Origin: Magnetospirillum sp.
GTDB taxonomy: Bacteria; Pseudomonadota; Alphaproteobacteria; CACIAM-22H2
DNA length: 64,000 bases
NCBI GenBank assembly: GCA_027532905.1
Contig: JAPZUA010000001.1
Location: forward strand, 147,565 to 211,564
Reading direction: 5' to 3'
Under the pieces are notes generated by a model. The model did not search any database. It had not been told where the DNA came from and was given only the letters and a program-made list of their open reading frames with translations. Position numbers and translations under genes: made by a program. Positions 5,939 to 36,390 of this stretch are shown piece by piece. Each line of letters starts with the position of its first letter. The stretch's first letter is position 1.

Positions 5939-6002
5939 CAGAATCCGGGCCCGTCGAAATCCGGGCGACTCAAAATCCGGGCGACTCAAAATCCGTGCGA
6001 CA
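5939..6002. repeat. 4 x 16-bp tandem direct repeat (cAAAATCCGGGCGACT)
   Basis: Units are cagaatccgggcccgt / cgaaatccgggcgact / caaaatccgggcgact / caaaatccgtgcgaca. They lie between convergent genes and partly overlap the 3' end of the minus-strand ORF. Confidence 0.8.
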
Positions 6003-6660
6003 GGCAGACCATAGCGGCCTCCTGGCCGCGGAAAGGCATGCGCTTGGCCGTGGCTGCCACCGGCGTCATCACGCCCGACAGCGTTTTGAGCGGGGTGGGC
6101 ATCGGTGCGGACGCCGCGAATTTGCCGGTTGCCGCAAGCAGCGTTTTGAAATCACCCGGCAAGGCGAAATGGGCCGCGATCGACGTTCCCATCAGATCGA
6201 ACTCGCTGCCATCGAGCAATTCGCGGAACGGCGCGTTGAGCCACAGGATCGTCCCATCGGCAACGGCCACCAAAGCCGCCGCGATCGGAATTGCGTCGAG
6301 CGTTTCGGCAAGACGCGTTTCGGCCGCCTGGGCTTCGTTCTCGGCGGCGACCGCAAGGGCGAGCAGCACGCGCCCGGCCCCCAGCCCCACGACACGCAAA
6401 GTGCCTTCGTAGCGGCCGGCAAACATCGTCGCGGGGCCGCACGCCACATGCGCGACGGCCCCCTCGCTGATCGCGTCGATCGCCGCAACCAGATCAGCGG
6501 GTACATCGTCGCCGAAGGCGGGGGCCCCCGGTTCGGCGCCGGCAAATTCCTGCGCGAACAGGCTGTCGGCCCAGACCAGACGCGCCGCACGCGCGCGCCC
6601 CGGTTCTGCCGCCAATACGGCGATCCCGCCTGCAAGTTCCATTTCGCCGTCGTCCGACAT
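5986..6660 (-). CDS. standalone PAS-like domain protein
   Basis: Start MSDDGEMELAGG with GGGGGGA upstream. PAS-like segment DGTILWLNAPFRELLDGSEFDLMGTSIAAHF. No output domain. Confidence 0.45.
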   Translation of the reverse strand: MSDDGEMELAGGIAVLAAEPGRARAARLVWADSLFAQEFAGAEPGAPAFGDDVPADLVAAIDAISEGAVAHVACGPATMFAGRYEGTLRVVGLGAGRVLLALAVAAENEAQAAETRLAETLDAIPIAAALVAVADGTILWLNAPFRELLDGSEFDLMGTSIAAHFALPGDFKTLLAATGKFAASAPMPTPLKTLSGVMTPVAATAKRMPFRGQEAAMVCLSHGF

Positions 6661-6787
6661 TCCGCATCCCCCCAAGGCCCGAAACGGGCAAGTTCGCCGG
6701 ATGTTAGCCAAGAAAACGGCTCGACAGAAGCGGGCGTTACGAACATTTCCCAAGACGCGCGCGGACGGTCTAGACTTTGCGCCGCCA

Positions 6788-7566
6788 TGTTCGCAAAAGG
6801 CCCCCTGCTGATCCGCCACGCCGTCGTCACGATGCTCGATGCATTCGCGAAGACGGCGCAGGAAACGGCTGTAAAAAACGGCGGCAAGATCGATTCCGCC
6901 GACATCGCGCGCATCGGCGAAGCGATGAAGAACTCAGGCGAGATCGAGAATTTCTACCGCGCCGTTTTCGGCCAGGTCGTGGCCTCGATCGTCGAATCGC
7001 AGAACCAGCATCGGCGCATAAACGCGTTCGGCCGTCTCGTGGCGCACCCGCTCGGCGATTTTTTCCAGTCGCAGCGCCTCGACCGCGCACTTCTCCACAA
7101 TTTCTTCTTTTTCGTGCAAGCGCTGGTCGGCGAGGCCGAGAACGACTGGAACGCCACCTGCGCTGCCGTGCTCGACGAGATGCGCGACAAAGCGGGCGAA
7201 GCGTTTGCGTGGGAGACCTTCTACAACGATCCGCGCACGCAGGCGATTTTCTGGCAAGTGCTGGTGCGCATCGCCCAGTCCTTCAAGCGCTTCGACACGC
7301 GCCGCGACTGGTTCTTGCGCATCATGCAGCACAAACAGACGTCGGTGAGCCTTGCCCCCAACAAATACGTGCAGCTCGGCGACGGGCTCGACGTCGCCCA
7401 GTTCGGCAAAGACGAATTCCTCAATCTGTTCGACAGCCTGTTTGCACCGGTCAAACGCCTGACACTGCAGGAAGTCGTGCGCTTCGAGGCGGCAACGGGG
7501 CTCGCACCGCGCACGGCTTTCGACCGTTTCTTTAGCGATTTGGACCGCTACAGGCGCGAGCACTGA
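6788..7566 (+). CDS. hypothetical protein (259 aa)
   Basis: This is the 3' part of the long ORF 5995..7566 and starts at internal ATG 6788. Soluble, helical-looking, no motif recognised. Confidence 0.45.
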
Positions 7567-8414: not shown

Positions 8415-9062
8415 TTGGAACCCACGGCCGATATCCATGCCTTGATCACCCAGTACGGGACGCTGATCTACGCGATTATCTTCGTGTGGACCTTCTTCGA
8501 GGGCGAAACCTTCGTGCTGTTTGCGGGTGCCGCTGCCCAGCAAGGCACATTGAATGTGTGGGTGCTGCTGGTTGTCGCGTGGCTCGGCAGTTTTGCCGGC
8601 GACCAGATGTGGTTTTGGATCGGCCGGCGCTACGGCAGCCAAATGCTCGAGCGGCGCCCGAAATGGCGGGCGGGCGTCGATGGCGCGCTCGAAATGCTCA
8701 AACGCTACGACACGTGGTTCATCCTGTCGTTCCGCTTCATCTACGGCGTGCGCAATTTCGCGTCGTTCGCGATGGGGGTGGCGCGCGTCGATCCGATGCG
8801 CTTTGCCGCCCTCAATTTCGTGGCGGCCTTCGTGTGGGCCGCGTCGTTCGTCGGCATCGGCTATCTGTTCGGCAGGGCACTGGAAGCGATGCTTGGCGAC
8901 GTCGTGCACTACTTCCTTTACGTGATGCTCGGCGTGTTCGTGGGCTCTTCGACGATCGTCTATCTCGTGCATCGCCACCACACGCGCAAAGCCGCGGCAC
9001 GCCAAGCGGCCAAAGACGAGGCCGCAAAAGCCGCCGCCGCCGCCGACATCGCCGCCGACTAG
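8415..9062 (+). CDS. DedA family membrane protein
   Basis: Conserved DedA/VTT core YGTLIYAIIFVWTFFEGETFVLFAG. TTG start. Confidence 0.75.
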   Translation: MEPTADIHALITQYGTLIYAIIFVWTFFEGETFVLFAGAAAQQGTLNVWVLLVVAWLGSFAGDQMWFWIGRRYGSQMLERRPKWRAGVDGALEMLKRYDTWFILSFRFIYGVRNFASFAMGVARVDPMRFAALNFVAAFVWAASFVGIGYLFGRALEAMLGDVVHYFLYVMLGVFVGSSTIVYLVHRHHTRKAAARQAAKDEAAKAAAAADIAAD

Positions 9063-9065
9063 ATT

Positions 9066-9956
9066 TCAGAACTGCAGAAGAGCGAGCGCCAAGGCCGCGA
9101 CGACGCAGGCCATGGCTGCGATCTCGGCCCAGCCCAGCGCCTCGCCCAGCAGCAGGGCCGAACTCAGCACGCCCACGACCGGAACCGCGAGCGTGCCGAT
9201 CGACGCAAGGGATGCCGGCAAGATCTCGAGCACGCGATACCACGCCCAATGGCAGAAAATCATCGGTACGGTCGCCGCATAAACAAGCCCCACGAGCGAG
9301 GGCAGCGACGGCAGGCCATGCGCAAAACCCGAGCCGCCGCCCTCGAAAACCACCATGCCGATCAGGACTGGCACGCCGCCGATCGCCAATTGCCATGCTG
9401 TGAGCGCGACGGCCGACATTTCGAAGCGCATCGCCTTGACCGCAACCGTGCCCGCCCCCCAGCCGACCGCGGCCGCCAGCATCAAAACAAGTCCCAAGGG
9501 CGACTGCGCCAGCGTATCGCCTGCGGGCAGCGCCAACAGCCCGAGACCGGCAAGCCCGCACAGGAGTGCGCCGATCTTGCGGGCACTCAGCCGCTCGCCC
9601 AGCAGCAAGGCTCCCAGCAGCGACGCCCACAGCGGCATCGTGAATGCCACCAGCACGGCACGCCCGGCCGACATCACGACAAGCCCATAGGCCGAGGTCA
9701 CGTGCCAGATCGTGATGTTGAGGAACGACGCCGCCGCCAGCGCCAAAACCCGGCCGCGCGGCAAACGCAGATCGAGCCCGCGCAGATAGCCCACCGCAAA
9801 CAGCCCGGCGGCCCCCACGTAAAGACAGATCGTGCGGAAGGTCCATGGCCCGACCTCGGCAACGGCAAGCTTCATGGCCGGCCAATTGATGCCCCACAAC
9901 AGCGCCAGGGCGACCAACAGCCACAGGCCTTCACGCCGGGCGGCAAGACTGGTCAA
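9066..9956 (-). CDS. EamA/DMT family transporter
   Basis: 296 aa with 10 predicted TM helices and the two-EamA-repeat architecture. Confidence 0.7.
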   Translation of the reverse strand: MTSLAARREGLWLLVALALLWGINWPAMKLAVAEVGPWTFRTICLYVGAAGLFAVGYLRGLDLRLPRGRVLALAAASFLNITIWHVTSAYGLVVMSAGRAVLVAFTMPLWASLLGALLLGERLSARKIGALLCGLAGLGLLALPAGDTLAQSPLGLVLMLAAAVGWGAGTVAVKAMRFEMSAVALTAWQLAIGGVPVLIGMVVFEGGGSGFAHGLPSLPSLVGLVYAATVPMIFCHWAWYRVLEILPASLASIGTLAVPVVGVLSSALLLGEALGWAEIAAMACVVAALALALLQF

Positions 9957-9962
9957 AGCGGT

Positions 9963-10205
9963 CTAGGCGCTCTTGCGGATATCGAACACGAATACGCCGT
10001 CCTGCTCGACGAGCTTTTCGAGCGTGGCCCCGGTGTTGCGGCACAAGGCTTCGAAATCGCGCACCGCCCCCGGATCCGTCGCCAGCACCTGCAAGGCGGC
10101 CCCCGCAGGCAGGCCTGCCATCGCCTTTTTGGCGCGCAGCACCGGCAGCGGGCAGTTGAGGCCTTTAAGGTCGAGGATTGTTACCGACATTTGCCCATTT
10201 CCCAT
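9963..10205 (-). CDS. tusA: TusA-like sulfurtransferase
   Basis: LDLKGLNCPLPVL CPxP motif. About 75-80 aa. Start may be M1 (10205) or M6 (10190). Confidence 0.8.
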   Translation of the reverse strand: MGNGQMSVTILDLKGLNCPLPVLRAKKAMAGLPAGAALQVLATDPGAVRDFEALCRNTGATLEKLVEQDGVFVFDIRKSA

Positions 10206-10293
10206 TCGTTTGACCGGAGCCTACGGGTTGAATATGCACGCCCGCAAGCCCTACATTCGCATCCCTGCCTTGCCCCGGAAAGACCAGCGCGCA

Positions 10294-11397
10294 ATGTCCG
10301 ACCTGCCTGTCCATCAGCTAGTTGCCCTTCTCGGTTTTGGCCTTGGGGCGGCCTTCGGCGCCGTCGTGCAGCGCACCAATTTCTGCGCGATGGGCTCGGT
10401 TTCCGACATCGTTTATCTTGAGGATTGGGGCCGCTTTCGCGCCTGGCTGCTCGCGATCGCCGTTGCGATCGCAGGAACGACAGCACTCGACGCCGCAGGC
10501 CTTGTCGATCTCAGCAAGGCCATCTACGCCACTCCCAATCTCGGCTGGCTCGGCGCGATTGTCGGCGGGCTGCTGTTCGGCATCGGCATGACGCTCGCGA
10601 GCGGCTGCGGCAGCCGCAGCCTCGCAAGGCTCGGGGCCGGCAACCTCAAAAGCCTTATCGTCGTGCTCGTGCTCGGCGTCTTCGCCTACATGACCTTGCG
10701 CGGCCTCCTCGGTGCGGCACGCGTGGCCGCGATCGAGCCCACGAATCTCGATCTGCGCGCAGCGGGCCATTCGACGCAATTGCTGCCCGGTCTGCTCGCA
10801 GCATGGACAGGTCTTGATGCCGCCAGCGTGCAGCTTGGGCTGGGGGCATCCGTCGTGCTGACGCTTGTTTGGTTCTGCCTCAAAGACCGCAGCTTCCGCA
10901 CCGATGCGCGCAATCTCGTGTCGGGCGTGCTGATCGGTCTGCTGGTCGTGGCCGGGTGGACTGCGACCGGCATCGTCGGCAACGACGATTTCGAGCCCGT
11001 CCCGCTTGCCTCCTTCACCTTCGTGGCGCCCATCGGCGATGCGCTTGTCTATCTGATGACATGGACGGGTGCGAAGATCAGCTTCGGCGTCGCCAGCGTA
11101 TTCGGCGTTGTCGCGGGGGCGTTTGTGGCCGCACGGTTGAGCGGCGAATTCCGGGTCGAAGCTTTTGCCGGTACGGCCGATCTGCTGCGCCATCTCGCCG
11201 GAGCCGCAATGATGGGAACGGGCGGCGTGCTCGCCTTGGGCTGCACGGTCGGCCAAGGCATTACGGGGCTTTCGACCTTGGCCGTGGGCTCGGTTCTGGC
11301 GTTCGCGGCCCTCGTTGCCGGTGCCGTGCTCGGGCTCAAATATCTCGAGCATGGCGGCATCGTGGCCGCCCTCAAAGCGCTGACGGCGCGCGCGTGA
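10294..11397 (+). CDS. yeeE: YeeE/YedE family thiosulfate/sulfur transporter
   Basis: Two conserved Cys loops, MTLASGCGSRSL and LALGCTVGQGITG. Divergent from tusA (TsuA-TsuB pair). Confidence 0.8.
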   Translation: MSDLPVHQLVALLGFGLGAAFGAVVQRTNFCAMGSVSDIVYLEDWGRFRAWLLAIAVAIAGTTALDAAGLVDLSKAIYATPNLGWLGAIVGGLLFGIGMTLASGCGSRSLARLGAGNLKSLIVVLVLGVFAYMTLRGLLGAARVAAIEPTNLDLRAAGHSTQLLPGLLAAWTGLDAASVQLGLGASVVLTLVWFCLKDRSFRTDARNLVSGVLIGLLVVAGWTATGIVGNDDFEPVPLASFTFVAPIGDALVYLMTWTGAKISFGVASVFGVVAGAFVAARLSGEFRVEAFAGTADLLRHLAGAAMMGTGGVLALGCTVGQGITGLSTLAVGSVLAFAALVAGAVLGLKYLEHGGIVAALKALTARA

Positions 11398-34110: not shown

Positions 34111-34156
34111 GTCGTCTCCCCCCACTCTGTCCCAGCACTTGGCGTGCCGCTTCAGA

Positions 34157-34209
34157 TACGCGACAACAGGCTACAATCGGCGACAGGCGTTGACTATAGG
34201 CGACATCGG
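34157..34209. promoter_or_regulatory. three direct repeats (G)GCGACA spaced 20 bp apart upstream of pcaHG
   Basis: acGCGACAacagg / tcGGCGACAggcg / taGGCGACAtcgg at 34157, 34177 and 34197, i.e. a two-helical-turn periodicity. Confidence 0.45.
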
Positions 34210-34415
34210 TAACCTATTTCCAACGCGCTGAAAACAAACACGAAGCACGCGATTTTGGGCCAATTGGGAGACGGATTCGGATTTTTCGAAATGTCGCCAA
34301 TAGCCTTATTTCACCATGTCAAACAGCACAACGCCGCTGCCCCTCTTTTGCCGAAAGAGGAGCAGCGGCGCATTGTTCGAGAATACGCAGAACACAACCT
34401 AAATATCAATGATTT

Positions 34416-34832: not shown

Positions 34833-34968
34833 TTTTTACCCTCTTGTTCGCCGATGATGCCGTTGTCGATCGACGGAATCTAGACGGCTCAGGTGCGGAC
34901 GTCCAACCCGCGACGTTGGCGGTCAACTCTCCGATTGTATGGCCGAAAAAAAAGCACGGATACTCGCA

Positions 34969-34997
34969 TTGACTTTCGATGATATTCGTATTATGTT
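34969..34997 (+). promoter_or_regulatory. candidate sigma70 promoter TTGACT-N17-TATGTT
   Basis: Found in an AT-rich stretch 40 nt upstream of the 35036 ATG. Confidence 0.35.
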
Positions 34998-35035
34998 CTT
35001 ATAAGACTATATAACCCTTTAGAGGTATTTAGCCT

Positions 35036-35512
35036 ATGCCGCTTATCGACAAGAAAATCCCCGGCTGGCTGAAAGGTGCGGTCGCCGGGATGCTGCTGCT
35101 GACGGTCGGGCATTTCATCTACCAGACCTTTTTCGTCGGCTGGCGGGAGTATCAAGTACTTGTCTTTGCGGATCAGCCTTTCGGGACTACCGACATCCGC
35201 TACGACATCTTCCTCGACGGCAACTACCGAGAAAAAACATTTTTCGTCAAACCGGCGCCGGACAGCACTTTCAGTCTCTTCGGCGCTGAACCGTTTCGCT
35301 CGACGGAGCGTCGCGTAAGCCTAGCGCTCGTTCCGCATTCGACCAACACAGCGCATCCGACCTACCGGTTCGTCGTCGAAGGCGATCCTGAAGGACATCG
35401 GTATTGCGAGATCGTGGTCTATCTGCACAACGGGACGCCCACAGTCGAAGCATGCAAGTTCAGAGAGTACGACGCTACGCTGTTTGGATTCTTCTTGAAC
35501 GTCGTCAACTGA
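35036..35512 (+). CDS. membrane-anchored protein of unknown function (158 aa)
   Basis: N-terminal TM helix (GAVAGMLLLTVGHFIY). Low-GC codon usage. RBS AGAGGTAT. Confidence 0.5.
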   Translation: MPLIDKKIPGWLKGAVAGMLLLTVGHFIYQTFFVGWREYQVLVFADQPFGTTDIRYDIFLDGNYREKTFFVKPAPDSTFSLFGAEPFRSTERRVSLALVPHSTNTAHPTYRFVVEGDPEGHRYCEIVVYLHNGTPTVEACKFREYDATLFGFFLNVVN

Positions 35513-35533
35513 CGGAAGGAGGAGGCAAACACC

Positions 35534-36295
35534 ATGAGCGAGAAAACACAAAGGCCGGTACCGCCCGTCGATCGGGCATACCCAAACGAACTGGAGGAAG
35601 CGGTTGCCCAAAACGCGCGACAGACCTCATACCCTGGCGCCAACAACGGTCCAGCCGATGCCTACCGACACATGTTCGGTATCGCCGAAGTGCAGCGACG
35701 TAGCTCTCAGACTGTCGCGCGCACTGTCGGAACCGCGAATGAAATCGACCGCAAGACCTGGCGCCTCAAGACGGACGCCGGTTCGCAAATGGATCTTCAC
35801 AACAATCGCATTGGCGAACGAATTGGCCGCGCCGCGCGCAACACCGCCGAGGTCGAAGCGTTGGTGCATGCCGAGGTGCGCGCCGCTGCCATCGAGGGCG
35901 GAACGGGGAAGAACGGCGCCGCCATATATCTGGCGCCCGAGAACTGGACCGGCGACGGCAATCGAACAACACCGATCGTCTGGCCACCGCACGATCTTGC
36001 GGGATCGAGCGAGGTCGAGCGGATTCTGGGCAAACCGACGCGGCTTTGGACCTCCGACGACGCGCGCAAAGTGATGCAAGACCGCATCTACAGGCAATGC
36101 ACGCATCCGCGCCAAGCCGAAGCGTTCGAAAAAGTGCGCAAGCATTTCGAACATCGCTACCCGGCACCGACGCGCGGCAGGGCGGCCACGCAAAGCAGAG
36201 AAGGCAGCAGCGGGCCTGTCCATGTCGATGCCTATACGCGCGGGGACGGCACGCAAGTGACCACCCATTCGCGCAGCGCACCTGGACCGCGCTAG
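35534..36295 (+). CDS. hydrophilic protein of unknown function (253 aa)
   Basis: Starts 22 nt downstream of the previous ORF with RBS GGAGGAGG. No signal peptide and no known motif. Confidence 0.5.
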   Translation: MSEKTQRPVPPVDRAYPNELEEAVAQNARQTSYPGANNGPADAYRHMFGIAEVQRRSSQTVARTVGTANEIDRKTWRLKTDAGSQMDLHNNRIGERIGRAARNTAEVEALVHAEVRAAAIEGGTGKNGAAIYLAPENWTGDGNRTTPIVWPPHDLAGSSEVERILGKPTRLWTSDDARKVMQDRIYRQCTHPRQAEAFEKVRKHFEHRYPAPTRGRAATQSREGSSGPVHVDAYTRGDGTQVTTHSRSAPGPR

Positions 36296-36390
36296 CGACG
36301 CCAGGGCGCGATCCAAGCGGCGGTTGGCGGCGATGCTGTCTTTGCTCTAACCTAGCTTCCGTCGCGAACAAGAAGACGGAAGAACGCCTA

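What the first reader, a model, noticed from the sequence alone, without database searches (positions are those of the whole stretch)
34860..36300. Low-GC islet with two co-oriented genes of unknown function
Between the pcaHG region and the Fe-ADH gene, GC drops sharply (34900-35530). The islet has a good sigma70-like promoter (TTGACT-N17-TATGTT). A TM-anchored 158-aa protein is followed 22 nt later, with a strong GGAGGAGG RBS, by a 253-aa soluble protein. Neither has motifs I recognise. The composition and tight coupling suggest a horizontally acquired two-gene module. Possibilities include a toxin/immunity, effector/chaperone or novel defence pair.
Basis: partly seen in the sequence, partly recalled or inferred. 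Interest (0 to 1): 0.6.

Follow-up and report, generated by a model that had tools for sequence, protein, structure and literature searches.

The report
Wnt-like cell-wall toxin with immunity gene
The two genes are most likely a bacterial weapon and its antidote: a secreted "Min-Wnt" toxin that attacks rivals' cell-wall assembly, and a membrane-anchored protein that protects the producer; it matters because this toxin type was thought to lack an antidote gene.

Summary
ORF-A (35036-35512, 158 aa: N-terminal TM helix plus a periplasmic beta-sandwich) is followed 21 nt later by ORF-B (35534-36295, 253 aa), in the lowest-GC stretch of the window.

In related genomes the A-then-B unit forms tandem arrays of one to four pairs at two fixed chromosomal sites, with orphan A genes and decayed B genes. 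The A ectodomain and the B toxin domain diverge together (r 0.85).

Best reading: a periplasm-acting cell-wall toxin with an inner-membrane-anchored immunity protein.

Not shown: toxicity, how B is exported, and whether B acts as an enzyme on lipid II or binds OmpA as reported for BteO.

The B architecture was catalogued computationally in 2025, without a partner gene. The partner and the array organisation appear to be new. Recent horizontal acquisition by this genome is not supported.

The parts
34969..34997 (+). Sigma-70-like promoter candidate, TTGACT-N17-TATGTT, in the AT-rich divergent intergenic region 34833-35035
   Evidence: 9 of 12 consensus positions; 2 sites found against 0.7 expected; the intergenic region is 46.3% GC. 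Function not shown.
35036..35512 (+). ORF-A, 158 aa: putative immunity protein. Short basic cytoplasmic tail, TM helix (aa 10-34), about nine-strand beta-sandwich (aa 37-141), short C-terminal helix
35405..35455 (+). Conserved Cys124...Cys140 pair flanking the last beta-hairpin of the ORF-A ectodomain; likely a periplasmic disulfide
   Evidence: C124 is invariant and C140 at least 90% conserved. The same C-x(7-9)...C hairpin occurs in the TM proteins next to distant relatives. The disulfide itself is inferred.
35518..35525 (+). GGAGGAGG ribosome-binding site, 8 nt upstream of the ORF-B start codon
   Evidence: Read directly from the sequence. The start at 35534 is supported by N-terminal conservation among homologs.
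35534..36295 (+). ORF-B, 253 aa: putative toxin. Min-Wnt (DUF6973) domain, then a helical middle region, then a C-terminal broken-hairpin. No signal peptide or TM segment
35588..35926 (+). Min-Wnt / DUF6973 Lipocone domain (aa ~19-131), modelled as five helices: 17-29, 40-56, 59-68, 82-100, 104-121
35666..35815 (+). Predicted active-site or binding-groove residues: R45/H46 (35666-35671), E70 (35741-35743), D87 (35792-35794), N90/N91 (35801-35806), G94 (35813-35815)
   Evidence: E70, D87, N90, N91 and G94 are near-invariant in about 90 relatives. The residues align with BteO R143/H144, E168 and D191, whose mutation abolished toxicity. They fit the Lipocone H2-His / H3-Glu / H4-Asp set and the sNxxG motif.
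35999..36163 (+). Conserved helical middle region of ORF-B (aa ~156-210), family-specific, role unknown
   Evidence: It stays 87-91% identical to L001 while the toxin domain drops to 60-76%.
36212..36283 (+). C-terminal broken-hairpin motif (aa ~227-250, within GPVHVDAYTRGDGTQVTTHSRSAPG)
   Evidence: AF2 models an interrupted beta-hairpin over aa 229-247. The motif recurs in 2-6 tandem copies in unrelated proteins, including an SNase nuclease. It fits the 'broken-hairpin' domain of PMC12419801.
36296..36307 (.). Indel junction. At this point the syntenic relatives carry an extra orphan A gene (L001) or a different array arrangement (L087)
   Evidence: the window lacks L001:8775-9349. Searches give the gene maps.

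Best explanation
ORF-A and ORF-B form an immunity/toxin cassette used in competition between bacteria.

**ORF-B (toxin).** It is a soluble Min-Wnt (Lipocone superfamily, Pfam DUF6973) toxin.
- It leaves the producer without a Sec/Tat signal. This step is inferred. It may depend on the single C-terminal broken-hairpin, or on a secretion system encoded elsewhere in the genome.
- It acts in the periplasm of target cells on cell-wall assembly.
- I favour an enzymatic mechanism, about 60:40: metal-dependent cleavage of the pyrophosphate or head-group linkage of lipid II or other undecaprenyl-linked precursors by the H46/E70/D87 site. TelC and YfiM do this in the same superfamily.
- The alternative is non-enzymatic sequestration of OmpA-type peptidoglycan-binding domains, as reported for the homolog BteO.

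**ORF-A (immunity).** It is anchored in the inner membrane by one TM helix. Its disulfide-stabilised beta-sandwich sits in the periplasm, where it would bind and neutralise the cognate toxin domain.

**Evolution of the locus.** The locus changes by gain and loss of tandem A-B units and by exchange of a cassette made of the A ectodomain plus the B toxin domain, between the conserved TM and C-terminal segments.

**Shown:** homology, architecture, array polymorphism and co-divergence.
**Inferred:** toxicity, neutralisation, topology, export route and substrate.
For: **1. Homology of ORF-B**
- Pfam DUF6973.
- Family profile hits BteO (PDB 9UU0) at E 2.6e-7.
- A profile of 26 published Min-Wnt sequences hits ORF-B at E 3.3e-16, with no decoy hits.

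**2. Functional residues**
- R45/H46, E70 and D87 align with BteO R143/H144, E168 and D191, which are essential for toxicity.
- They match the Lipocone His/Glu/Asp set.
- E70, D87, N90 and N91 are near-invariant in about 90 relatives.
- The YfiM mutants K28A, H31A, E72A and D91A lose pyrophosphatase activity on lipid-linked oligosaccharides.

**3. Site of action**
- BteO is toxic only in the periplasm, and this also holds in E. coli.
- Known Lipocone immunity proteins are all TM-anchored or lipoproteins.
- ORF-A is a TM helix plus a beta-sandwich with a conserved Cys pair.

**4. Cassette behaviour**
- A-B-A in L001 and L002.
- A-B-A-B in L087.
- Three pairs in L085 and four pairs in L090.
- Orphan A genes; a frameshifted B (L087_B1) and a truncated B (L090).

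**5. Co-divergence**
- Identity to L001 falls to 60-76% only across the A ectodomain and the B N-domain, against 87-97% in the flanks.
- dS is 1.0-1.5 there against 0.2-0.3 in the flanks.
- The window pair is orthologous to the second pair of L087.
- Mantel test r = 0.85, p = 1e-4; 9 of 12 nearest-neighbour assignments agree.

**6. Partner gene in distant relatives**
- Distant full-length relatives, including prophage-borne ones, also have a TM-plus-beta protein with the C...C hairpin beside them.
- A crude automatic screen found a partner next to 10 of 18 motif-bearing genes, against a 15% background.
Against: - No toxicity, neutralisation or secretion has been measured for this pair.
- ORF-B lacks BteO's N-terminal TM/Hcp-loading region.
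- No T6SS, T1SS or other secretion genes lie within +/-8 kb in the syntenic loci, or among the ten large ORFs sampled elsewhere in the window.
- ORF-A is unrelated in fold to BteO's immunity protein BtiO.
- Homology of ORF-A to the TM proteins next to distant relatives is not demonstrable: hhalign probability 30%, and iterative HMM search gives hits no better than decoys.
- Co-divergence of adjacent genes is expected from linkage alone.
- The paper that defined broken-hairpin toxins reports that they tend to lack immunity genes.
- Some DUF6973 genes are fixed core-genome genes with no partner, such as the Xanthomonadaceae gene between carA and carB. The domain is therefore not always a weapon.
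- The only experimental work on a Min-Wnt member (BteO) found no peptidoglycan hydrolase or amidase activity and argued for OmpA binding.
Confidence: 0.6

Rival explanations
1. The role is the same (toxin plus immunity), but the mechanism is that published for BteO. ORF-B has no catalytic activity. Its conserved groove binds the C-terminal peptidoglycan-binding domain of OmpA/Pal-family proteins in the target periplasm and uncouples the outer membrane from the wall. ORF-A competes for that groove.
For: BteO is the closest experimentally studied homolog. In BteO, the mutants R143A, H144A, H167A, E168A, D187A and D191A lost both toxicity and OmpA9 binding. No hydrolase or amidase activity was detected on sacculi or muropeptides. 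Animal SAA, from the sister family, is reported to bind OmpA.
Against: - Two of the six BteO contact residues differ in ORF-B: H167 corresponds to N69 and D187 to G83.
- ORF-A is not an OmpA-C mimic like BtiO.
- Near-invariance of a His/Glu/Asp/Asn set across relatives in several phyla fits a small-molecule active site better than a protein interface. In this superfamily the same positions are catalytic in YfiM and predicted catalytic generally.
- Lipid-linked substrates were not among the BteO assays described in the sections I read.
Confidence: 0.25
2. The pair takes part in phage-host conflict rather than competition between bacteria. ORF-B stays inside the cell and, on infection, destroys lipid-linked wall precursors (abortive infection), or excludes superinfecting phage. 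ORF-A is a membrane sensor or antitoxin.
For: - ORF-B has no signal peptide.
- The Lipocone paper predicts intracellular Min-Wnt effectors in antiviral systems and notes phage-encoded versions.
- It lists the broken-hairpin architecture in Duplodnaviria.
- Distant full-length relatives sit among terminase, portal and tail genes in L088 and L089.
- Variable arrays are also typical of defence loci.
Against: - No PADLOC hit.
- No defence genes nearby.
- The bulk of ORF-A is predicted to be periplasmic with a conserved Cys pair, so it could not meet a cytoplasmic ORF-B.
- BteO is non-toxic in the cytoplasm.
Confidence: 0.12
3. The pair is a housekeeping envelope module. ORF-B and ORF-A would act in the producer's own lipid-carrier recycling or outer-membrane/peptidoglycan tethering, as the conserved membrane-anchored DUF6973 gene of Xanthomonadaceae may do.
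For: - A TM-anchored DUF6973 gene is fixed between carA and carB across Lysobacter, Stenotrophomonas and Xanthomonas, with no partner gene.
- YfiM is a physiological pyrophosphatase acting on lipid-linked oligosaccharides.
- The window module is syntenic in its closest relatives.
Against: - Copy number ranges from one to four at a site, with orphan A genes and decayed B genes.
- dN/dS is two to three times that of the flanks, and the alleles are deeply diverged.
- Close relatives are absent from the species-representative genomes scanned: best identity 40%.
- ORF-B has no export signal that would take it to the envelope.
Confidence: 0.06

Closest known systems
Min-Wnt + broken-hairpin proteins of the Lipocone superfamily (Burroughs, Nicastro and Aravind, eLife 2025, PMC12419801; computational description)
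   Same: - Same domain family: a profile of their Min-Wnt sequences hits ORF-B at E 3e-16, and 33 of their sequences carry ORF-B's GPADAYRH motif.
- Same architecture: the Min-Wnt domain followed by a C-terminal broken-hairpin, with no signal peptide.
- Same taxa: Alphaproteobacteria and phages.
- Same wider fusions: beta-roll/RTX repeats, cadherin and Ig domains.
   Different: - That paper files this architecture under inter-specific toxins with no partner gene, and states that broken-hairpin proteins tend to lack immunity proteins.
- Here a TM-anchored beta-sandwich gene is consistently adjacent and co-diverges with the toxin domain, and the units form polymorphic arrays.
- The listed Min-Wnt immunity families (Imm-BamE, Imm-Jellyroll, Imm-4TM) are mostly downstream lipoproteins. 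ORF-A lies upstream and is TM-anchored.
- Whether ORF-A is related to Imm-Jellyroll could not be tested.
BteO-BtiO, Bacteroides fragilis GA3 T6SS effector-immunity pair (He et al., PNAS 2025, PMC12541434; PDB 9UU0/9UU1)
   Same: - Homologous toxin domain.
- Four of the six residues essential in BteO are conserved in ORF-B.
- A periplasm-acting, wall-disrupting toxin with an adjacent immunity gene whose product is exported.
   Different: - BteO has an N-terminal TM region, lies inside a T6SS locus and is thought to be loaded on Hcp. ORF-B has none of these, and instead has a helical C-terminal region and a broken-hairpin.
- BtiO is a signal-peptide protein with an OmpA-C-like alpha/beta fold. 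ORF-A is a TM-anchored beta-sandwich.
- The gene order is reversed.
TelC-TipC (Streptococcus intermedius T7SS lipid II phosphatase and its membrane-bound immunity protein)
   Same: According to PMC12419801 they are in the same superfamily. TelC is active only outside the cytoplasm, it cleaves lipid II, and its immunity protein works at the membrane/periplasm side. This is the template for the enzymatic mechanism proposed for ORF-B.
   Different: TelC belongs to a different Lipocone clade (prok-TelC). It has an LXG/T7SS delivery domain and comes from a Gram-positive host. No direct sequence match to ORF-B was seen.
Colicin M and its immunity protein Cmi
   Same: [quoted passage not shown]
   Different: The toxin fold is unrelated (no ColM match). 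ColM has defined receptor-binding and translocation domains, and none are recognisable in ORF-B. This is an analogy, not membership.
YfiM (E. coli pyrophosphatase acting on lipid-linked oligosaccharides; bioRxiv 10.64898/2026.09.16.752124)
   Same: A Lipocone member with a K/R-H...E...D site whose mutation abolishes Ca2+-dependent pyrophosphatase activity, and whose overexpression causes lysis. ORF-B has the same residue arrangement.
   Different: YfiM is an integral-membrane housekeeping enzyme of a different clade. It is not a toxin and has no immunity partner.

Membership tests
Pfam DUF6973 (PF22322) | Score above the curated gathering threshold | tested here: met
   39.7 bits against a cut-off of 27, E 4.2e-10, aa 23-111.
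Min-Wnt family, SAW clade, Lipocone superfamily | Significant match to a profile of published family members | tested here: met
   An HMM of 26 sequences from the authors' Min-Wnt set, excluding those with ORF-B's GPADAYRH motif, hits ORF-B at E 3.3e-16 (58.7 bits, aa 19-116). None of about 4,400 reversed decoys was hit.
Min-Wnt family, SAW clade, Lipocone superfamily | Conserved polar set: His on H2, Glu on or at the end of H3, Asp on H4, a polar residue downstream of the Asp, and a Gly capping H4 | tested here: met
   H46, E70, D87, N91 and G94 are present. E70, D87, N90, N91 and G94 are near-invariant in 12 close and 82 distant relatives. The feature is defined. Caveat: invariance at positions 38-46 is partly circular, because the genome scan was seeded on that motif.
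Min-Wnt family, SAW clade, Lipocone superfamily | sNxxGR motif on H4 | tested here: inconclusive
   ORF-B has N90-N91-R-I-G94-E95. The sNxxG part is present, but the final Arg is Glu in this subfamily. BteO has NNQIGR.
Min-Wnt family, SAW clade, Lipocone superfamily | Soluble four-helix cone with a fifth helix; structural similarity to Wnt | tested here: met
Broken-hairpin domain (PMC12419801) | Short C-terminal beta-hairpin with a central break, fused to diverse toxin domains, in proteins without a signal peptide | tested here: met
   AF2 gives interrupted strands at 229-231, 234-235, 241-242 and 245-247. The motif recurs in an SNase nuclease, a Sel1 protein and others, matching the fusions listed. 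No reference sequences for the domain were available for a direct profile test.
Broken-hairpin domain (PMC12419801) | Reported tendency: no associated immunity protein or secretion system | tested here: not met
   No secretion system is nearby, which agrees with the report. A conserved adjacent TM-anchored partner is present, which disagrees.
BteO-type T6SS effector | Homologous toxin domain | tested here: met
BteO-type T6SS effector | N-terminal TM/Hcp-loading region, and a gene inside a T6SS locus | tested here: not met
   ORF-B has no hydrophobic N-terminus. No T6SS genes lie in the syntenic +/-8 kb or in the sampled window ORFs. The rest of the genome was not available.
BteO-type T6SS effector | BtiO-like immunity protein (an OmpA-C-like mimic) | tested here: not met
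BteO-type T6SS effector | Binds OmpA-family C-terminal domains | not testable with these tools
   This needs a binding assay. Two of the six BteO contact residues differ in ORF-B.
Polymorphic toxin-immunity cassette (general) | Adjacent cognate immunity gene, variable copy number, orphan immunity genes, decayed toxins | tested here: met
   Arrays of one to four pairs at two sites; orphan A genes in L001 and L002; a frameshifted or truncated B in L087 and L090.
Polymorphic toxin-immunity cassette (general) | Co-diversification of the toxin domain and the immunity protein | tested here: met
   Localised drop in identity, raised dS, Mantel r 0.85. Linkage alone could contribute to this.
Polymorphic toxin-immunity cassette (general) | N-terminal trafficking domain with a variable C-terminal toxin tip | tested here: not met
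   In ORF-B the toxin domain is N-terminal and the conserved part is C-terminal.
Polymorphic toxin-immunity cassette (general) | Toxin kills, and the immunity protein neutralises it | not testable with these tools
   This needs expression and competition experiments.
Imm-Jellyroll (Min-Wnt immunity family of PMC12419801) | Membership of ORF-A | not tested
Known anti-phage defence systems (PADLOC-DB) | Match to any model | tested here: not met
   No hit for either protein at E <= 1.

The most novel reading that the evidence does not exclude
Broken-hairpin Min-Wnt proteins would be self-exporting, bacteriocin-like cell-wall toxins that do have dedicated immunity proteins: a previously unrecognised family of inner-membrane-anchored periplasmic beta-sandwiches. 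They would be used in kin-level competition through recombining A-ectodomain/B-toxin cassettes. By extension, the 'non-enzymatic' effector BteO would be a lipid II / undecaprenyl-pyrophosphate-cleaving Lipocone enzyme, and its reported OmpA-contact residues would be the catalytic His/Glu/Asp site.
Probability: 0.3. Interest if true: 0.75.

Novelty: new variant of a known kind. Interest (0 to 1): 0.55.

Why it matters
- **A candidate immunity family.** The pair supplies a candidate immunity family, and a polymorphic-array lifestyle, for a toxin architecture that was catalogued only in 2025 and described as lacking immunity genes. That would shift these proteins from weapons against other species toward kin discrimination.
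- **A link between two papers.** Neither of the two 2025 papers, as searched here, connects BteO with the Min-Wnt family. BteO, the only Min-Wnt member studied experimentally, was reported to be a non-enzymatic OmpA binder. The residues needed for its toxicity sit at the positions predicted to be catalytic in the Lipocone superfamily, and shown to be catalytic in YfiM. This makes a question directly testable: do bacterial Wnt-like toxins kill by cleaving lipid-linked cell-wall precursors?
- **A small experimental system.** A compact two-gene proteobacterial system, with natural cognate and non-cognate alleles, is convenient for testing this and for testing the proposed self-trafficking role of the broken-hairpin.

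Tried and rejected
- **Family libraries.** NCBIfam, PADLOC and PHROGs gave nothing for either protein. Pfam and PDB sequence searches gave nothing credible for ORF-A.
- **ORF-A as a BtiO/OmpA-like mimic.** Rejected: it is an all-beta sandwich.
- **Linking ORF-A to the TM proteins beside distant relatives.** hhalign gave only 30% probability. Iterative HMM search converged on 20 close sequences, and sub-threshold hits were no better than reversed decoys. Only the architecture, the position and the Cys-hairpin are shared.
- **Mobile-element signatures around the islet.** Only short chance-level repeats were found.
- **Secretion machinery.** None in the syntenic flanks or among ten large window ORFs. 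No PAAR, VgrG or Rhs domains among the top 120 of 766 family members. The longer relatives have no signal peptide or TM segment.
- **The 815-aa gene embedded in the site-2 arrays.** It is an alpha/beta-hydrolase plus a GT41 OGT-like protein, and says nothing about delivery.
- **RTX fusions as proof of T1SS delivery.** I first read them that way. They are adhesin-like (cadherin, He_PIG, BapA prefix), so the N-terminal domain could equally be a periplasmic retention module. I no longer count them as evidence of toxin delivery.
- **Automated partner screen.** It is crude: it misses known partners and has a 15% background rate. I use it only as supporting evidence.
- **Recent positive selection as the cause of divergence.** Rejected. 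dN/dS is 0.21-0.28 and dS is strongly raised, which points to exchange of old alleles.
Full report
**1. The observation**

The two co-oriented ORFs are present: ORF-A at 35036-35512 (158 aa) and ORF-B at 35534-36295 (253 aa). They are separated by 21 nt, with GGAGGAGG at 35518-35525. A TTGACT-N17-TATGTT site lies at 34969-34997. It matches 9 of 12 consensus positions, and the scan found 2 such sites in 2.4 kb against 0.7 expected, so it is only a weak indication of a promoter.

The GC dip is genuine. 34900-35530 is 52.9% GC against a window mean of 65.1%, and it contains the lowest-GC 477-, 630- and 762-bp windows in the 64 kb. The dip is due to the 203-bp divergent intergenic region (46.3%) and ORF-A (55.6%). 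ORF-B is near average in GC (63.0%), although both genes have lower GC3 (0.69-0.70) than their neighbours (0.77-0.79).

**2. What ORF-B is**

ORF-B passes the gathering threshold of Pfam DUF6973. It has 25 close homologs, all unnamed.

A profile of these homologs hits one solved structure significantly: 9UU0, at E 2.6e-7. 9UU0 is MBP fused to BteO residues 83-end, a Bacteroides fragilis GA3 T6SS effector. Subtracting 296 from the chain numbering reproduces every residue number in that paper, so the functional residues can be mapped onto ORF-B:

| BteO residue | ORF-B residue | Note |
|---|---|---|
| R143 / H144 | R45 / H46 | conserved |
| H167 | N69 | differs |
| E168 | E70 | conserved |
| D187 | G83 | differs; Asp in several close homologs |
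| D191 | D87 | conserved |

All six BteO residues were required for toxicity.

- The authors' Min-Wnt sequence file contains 33 sequences with ORF-B's GPADAYRH motif and hundreds with DAFRH or MDLHNN.
- An HMM I built from 26 of their sequences, excluding the GPADAYRH type, hits ORF-B at E 3.3e-16 with no decoy hits.
- ORF-B therefore belongs to the Min-Wnt family, as do DUF6973 proteins in general and BteO.
- H46, E70, D87, N91 and G94 occupy the defining positions. The terminal Arg of sNxxGR is Glu in this subfamily.

**3. The C-terminus of ORF-B**

The last ~35 residues (GPVHVDAYTRGDGTQVTTHSRSAPG) model as an interrupted beta-hairpin.

An exhaustive search with aa 150-253 showed that this motif recurs in two to six tandem copies in unrelated proteins. 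These include a bacterial SNase-type nuclease, a Sel1 protein, and Ser/Thr kinases of eukaryote or giant-virus type. No Pfam model reaches threshold on it.

This fits the "broken-hairpin" domain of the Lipocone paper. That domain is fused to Min-Wnt, SNase, ColM, alpha/beta-hydrolase and other toxin domains, in proteins that lack signal peptides, and the authors propose that it is a trafficking device in its own right. Their table lists "Min-Wnt + Broken-hairpin" for Alphaproteobacteria, phages and Terrabacteria, with no partner gene.

**4. What ORF-A is**

No library recognises ORF-A, and it has only 11 close homologs.

The basic N-terminal tail (K6, K7, K13) and the acidic stretch after the helix predict an N-in/C-out topology. 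C124 is invariant and C140 is at least 90% conserved, which fits a periplasmic disulfide. Both the topology and the disulfide are inferences.

**5. Context in relatives**

The window matches a MAG labelled Magnetospirillum sp. (Rhodospirillales). Its Fe-ADH is identical to MCZ8309383.1. The neighbouring PGAP gene call for ORF-B is 207 aa. By arithmetic that call would begin at Met47 and cut off the conserved motif.

| Locus | Site | Arrangement |
|---|---|---|
| Window | DUF3830 ... Fe-ADH | A-B |
| L001 (flanks ~89% identical) | same site | A-B-A |
| L087 | same site | A-B-A-B |
| L002 | second site (DUF1194 ... aminotransferase / P-II / glnA) | A-B-A |
| L085 | second site | three pairs |
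| L090 | second site | four pairs, one B truncated |

- The window lacks exactly the 575 bp that hold L001's third gene.
- L087_B1 is frameshifted at its C-terminus.
- The species-representative genomes scanned hold only relatives of 40% identity or less.
- The full-length relatives (Acetobacteraceae, Rhodospirillales) nearly always have a ~150-200 aa protein made of a TM helix plus a beta-rich domain directly beside them, with a C-x(7-9)...C hairpin like that of ORF-A.
- The same is true of copies embedded in prophage-like regions.
- Sequence homology between these partners and ORF-A could not be established.

**6. Co-divergence**

Against L001, identity is 87-97% in the flanks, in the ORF-A TM segment and in the ORF-B C-terminus. 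It drops to 60-76% across 35100-36000, which is the ORF-A ectodomain plus the ORF-B Min-Wnt domain.

| Segment | dS | dN/dS |
|---|---|---|
| ORF-A ectodomain | 1.5 | 0.23 |
| ORF-B N-domain | 1.0 | 0.21 |
| ORF-A TM segment | 0.17 | 0.22 |
| ORF-B C-terminal part | 0.31 | 0.21 |
| Flanking genes | 0.20-0.34 | 0.08-0.13 |

Because dS is raised as well as dN, this looks like exchange of old alleles rather than recent positive selection.

The window pair is orthologous to L087's second pair (A ectodomain 87-88%, B N-domain 92-93% identical), not to L001's pair (54% and 68-70%). Across 12 adjacent pairs, A-ectodomain identity and B-N-domain identity correlate at r = 0.85 (Mantel p = 1e-4), and 9 of 12 nearest-neighbour assignments agree. 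Linkage alone contributes to such a correlation. Even so, the sharp breakpoints at the TM/ectodomain boundary and near residue 155 of ORF-B show that the two variable parts travel together as one unit.

**7. Mechanism**

The role of toxin plus immunity rests on four lines of evidence:
- homology to a proven effector;
- the periplasmic site of action of BteO and TelC;
- the topology of ORF-A;
- the way the cassette behaves in relatives.

There are two candidate mechanisms for killing.

*Non-enzymatic OmpA binding.* The experimental paper on BteO reports binding to OmpA-family C-terminal domains, and found no activity on sacculi or muropeptides.

*Enzymatic cleavage of lipid-linked precursors.* The Lipocone analysis predicts cleavage of phosphate-linked head groups of lipid carriers such as lipid II. 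Two points support this:
- In YfiM, the corresponding K/H, E and D residues are essential for Ca2+-dependent pyrophosphatase activity on lipid-linked oligosaccharides, and overexpression of YfiM causes lysis.
- BteO's phenotypes (elongation, blebbing, lysis, altered muropeptides) are also what loss of lipid II would produce. The assays described in the sections I read used sacculi and muropeptides, not lipid-linked substrates.

Because the polar set is near-invariant across relatives in several phyla, I favour the enzymatic reading at about 60:40. The point is open.

Export is the weakest link. ORF-B has no signal peptide and no TM segment. No secretion genes lie nearby. No PAAR, VgrG or Rhs fusions occur among the top family members.

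**8. Caveats on the family**

Not every DUF6973 protein is a weapon.
- Xanthomonadaceae carry a 147-aa version with its own TM anchor, fixed between carA and carB and with no partner gene.
- The giant RTX proteins with an N-terminal DUF6973 domain look like adhesins, so there the domain may act as a periplasmic anchor.

These cases keep a housekeeping reading alive, at low probability. A phage-conflict reading is kept alive by the prophage-borne copies and by the paper's predictions of antiviral Min-Wnt systems.

**9. Novelty and verdict**

ORF-B's domain architecture was catalogued computationally in 2025, so it is a new member of a known kind. The following are not in that paper's text, table or neighbourhood statistics, which list no partner for this architecture and say such proteins tend to lack immunity genes:
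- the adjacent TM-anchored beta-sandwich partner;
- the tandem polymorphic arrays at two fixed chromosomal sites;
- the orphan and decayed copies;
- the joint exchange of the A ectodomain and the B toxin domain.

"DUF6973" appears in no paper in the searchable library. BteO appears in only two relevant papers, and the passages I read in them do not place it in the Lipocone superfamily. I rate the finding a new variant of a known kind, of moderate interest. It is a plausible but unproven toxin-immunity pair, and its main value is the testable link it makes between two recent lines of work.

Noticed in passing
ORF-B residues R45/H46, E70, D87 (window 35666-35794); literature PMC12541434 and PMC12419801: The residues reported as the OmpA-binding groove of the 'non-enzymatic' T6SS effector BteO (R143/H144, H167/E168, D187/D191) fall at the predicted catalytic His/Glu/Asp positions of the Lipocone superfamily. 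BteO matches the Min-Wnt consensus. Neither paper, as searched here, makes the connection.
   Followed up: partly
window 35534-35674 (ORF-B aa 1-46): The public annotation of what appears to be this same gene in a Magnetospirillum sp. MAG (MCZ8309382.1, locus tag O9320_00915) is 207 aa. By arithmetic that call would start at Met47 and remove the conserved PG-x-NGPADAYRH motif. Homolog conservation from Met1 and the strong RBS support the 253-aa call.
   Followed up: partly
L077:7923-8366, L083:7926-8369, L030:7947-8387, L021:7926-8369 and about 40 other Xanthomonadaceae loci: A 146-147 aa DUF6973/Min-Wnt protein with its own N-terminal TM helix sits at a fixed position between carA and carB in Xanthomonas and Stenotrophomonas. 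In Lysobacter (L021) extra ORFs intervene before carB. No partner gene is present, so it looks like a core-genome, non-cassette member of the family.
   Followed up: partly
L088:3040-4617 and 9019-10762; L089:2206-10762: Distant full-length relatives with the same broken-hairpin tail occur in two to four copies inside prophage-like regions (terminase, DUF4055 portal, tail terminator, tube). L088's copies each have an upstream TM-plus-beta protein. In L089 some copies are instead paired with divergently transcribed multi-TM proteins of about 210 aa.
   Followed up: partly
P0077, P0078, P0081, P0097, P0079, P0087, P0091: The broken-hairpin motif V.V.GYTR.DGT.V..[HY]TRS.P occurs in two to six tandem copies separated by Ser/Thr-rich linkers. 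It is found in Ser/Thr kinases that also carry YVDNAYNRKLGRVGK-type basic motifs (probably eukaryotic or giant-virus proteins), in a U-box protein, in an SNase nuclease and in a Sel1 protein. No Pfam model reaches threshold on it.
   Followed up: partly
L087:8001-8723 and L090:10001-10807: Two B genes within the arrays are decayed. L087_B1 has a frameshifted C-terminus (only 44% identity after residue ~185). L090's second B is split into 203-aa and 58-aa pieces. The adjacent A genes remain intact.
   Followed up: yes
L085:3155-5602 and L090:5527-7983: An 815-818 aa protein combining an alpha/beta-hydrolase domain with a GT41 (OGT/SPINDLY-like) glycosyltransferase domain lies inside or at the head of the site-2 arrays. 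Its role is unknown, and it has no evident link to secretion.
   Followed up: partly
L041:773-9010, L076:2545-8190, L023:3610-7179, L075:1951-4245: Large RTX-repeat proteins of 764 to 2745 aa begin with a DUF6973/Min-Wnt domain; the two largest (L041, L076) also carry adhesin-like domains such as cadherin, He_PIG or BapA-prefix. The N-terminal domain could be a delivered effector or a periplasmic retention/anchor module.
   Followed up: no
window 5995-7566 (+): A 523-aa ORF with coding-like codon-position GC has no Pfam hit. It spans the only other marked low-GC stretch in the window (about 6850-7400).
   Followed up: no
window 34126-34415: The intergenic region between pcaH and the DUF3830 gene is also low in GC (about 52-55%). 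It contains an 18-bp-stem terminator-like hairpin on the minus strand (34371-34331).
   Followed up: no
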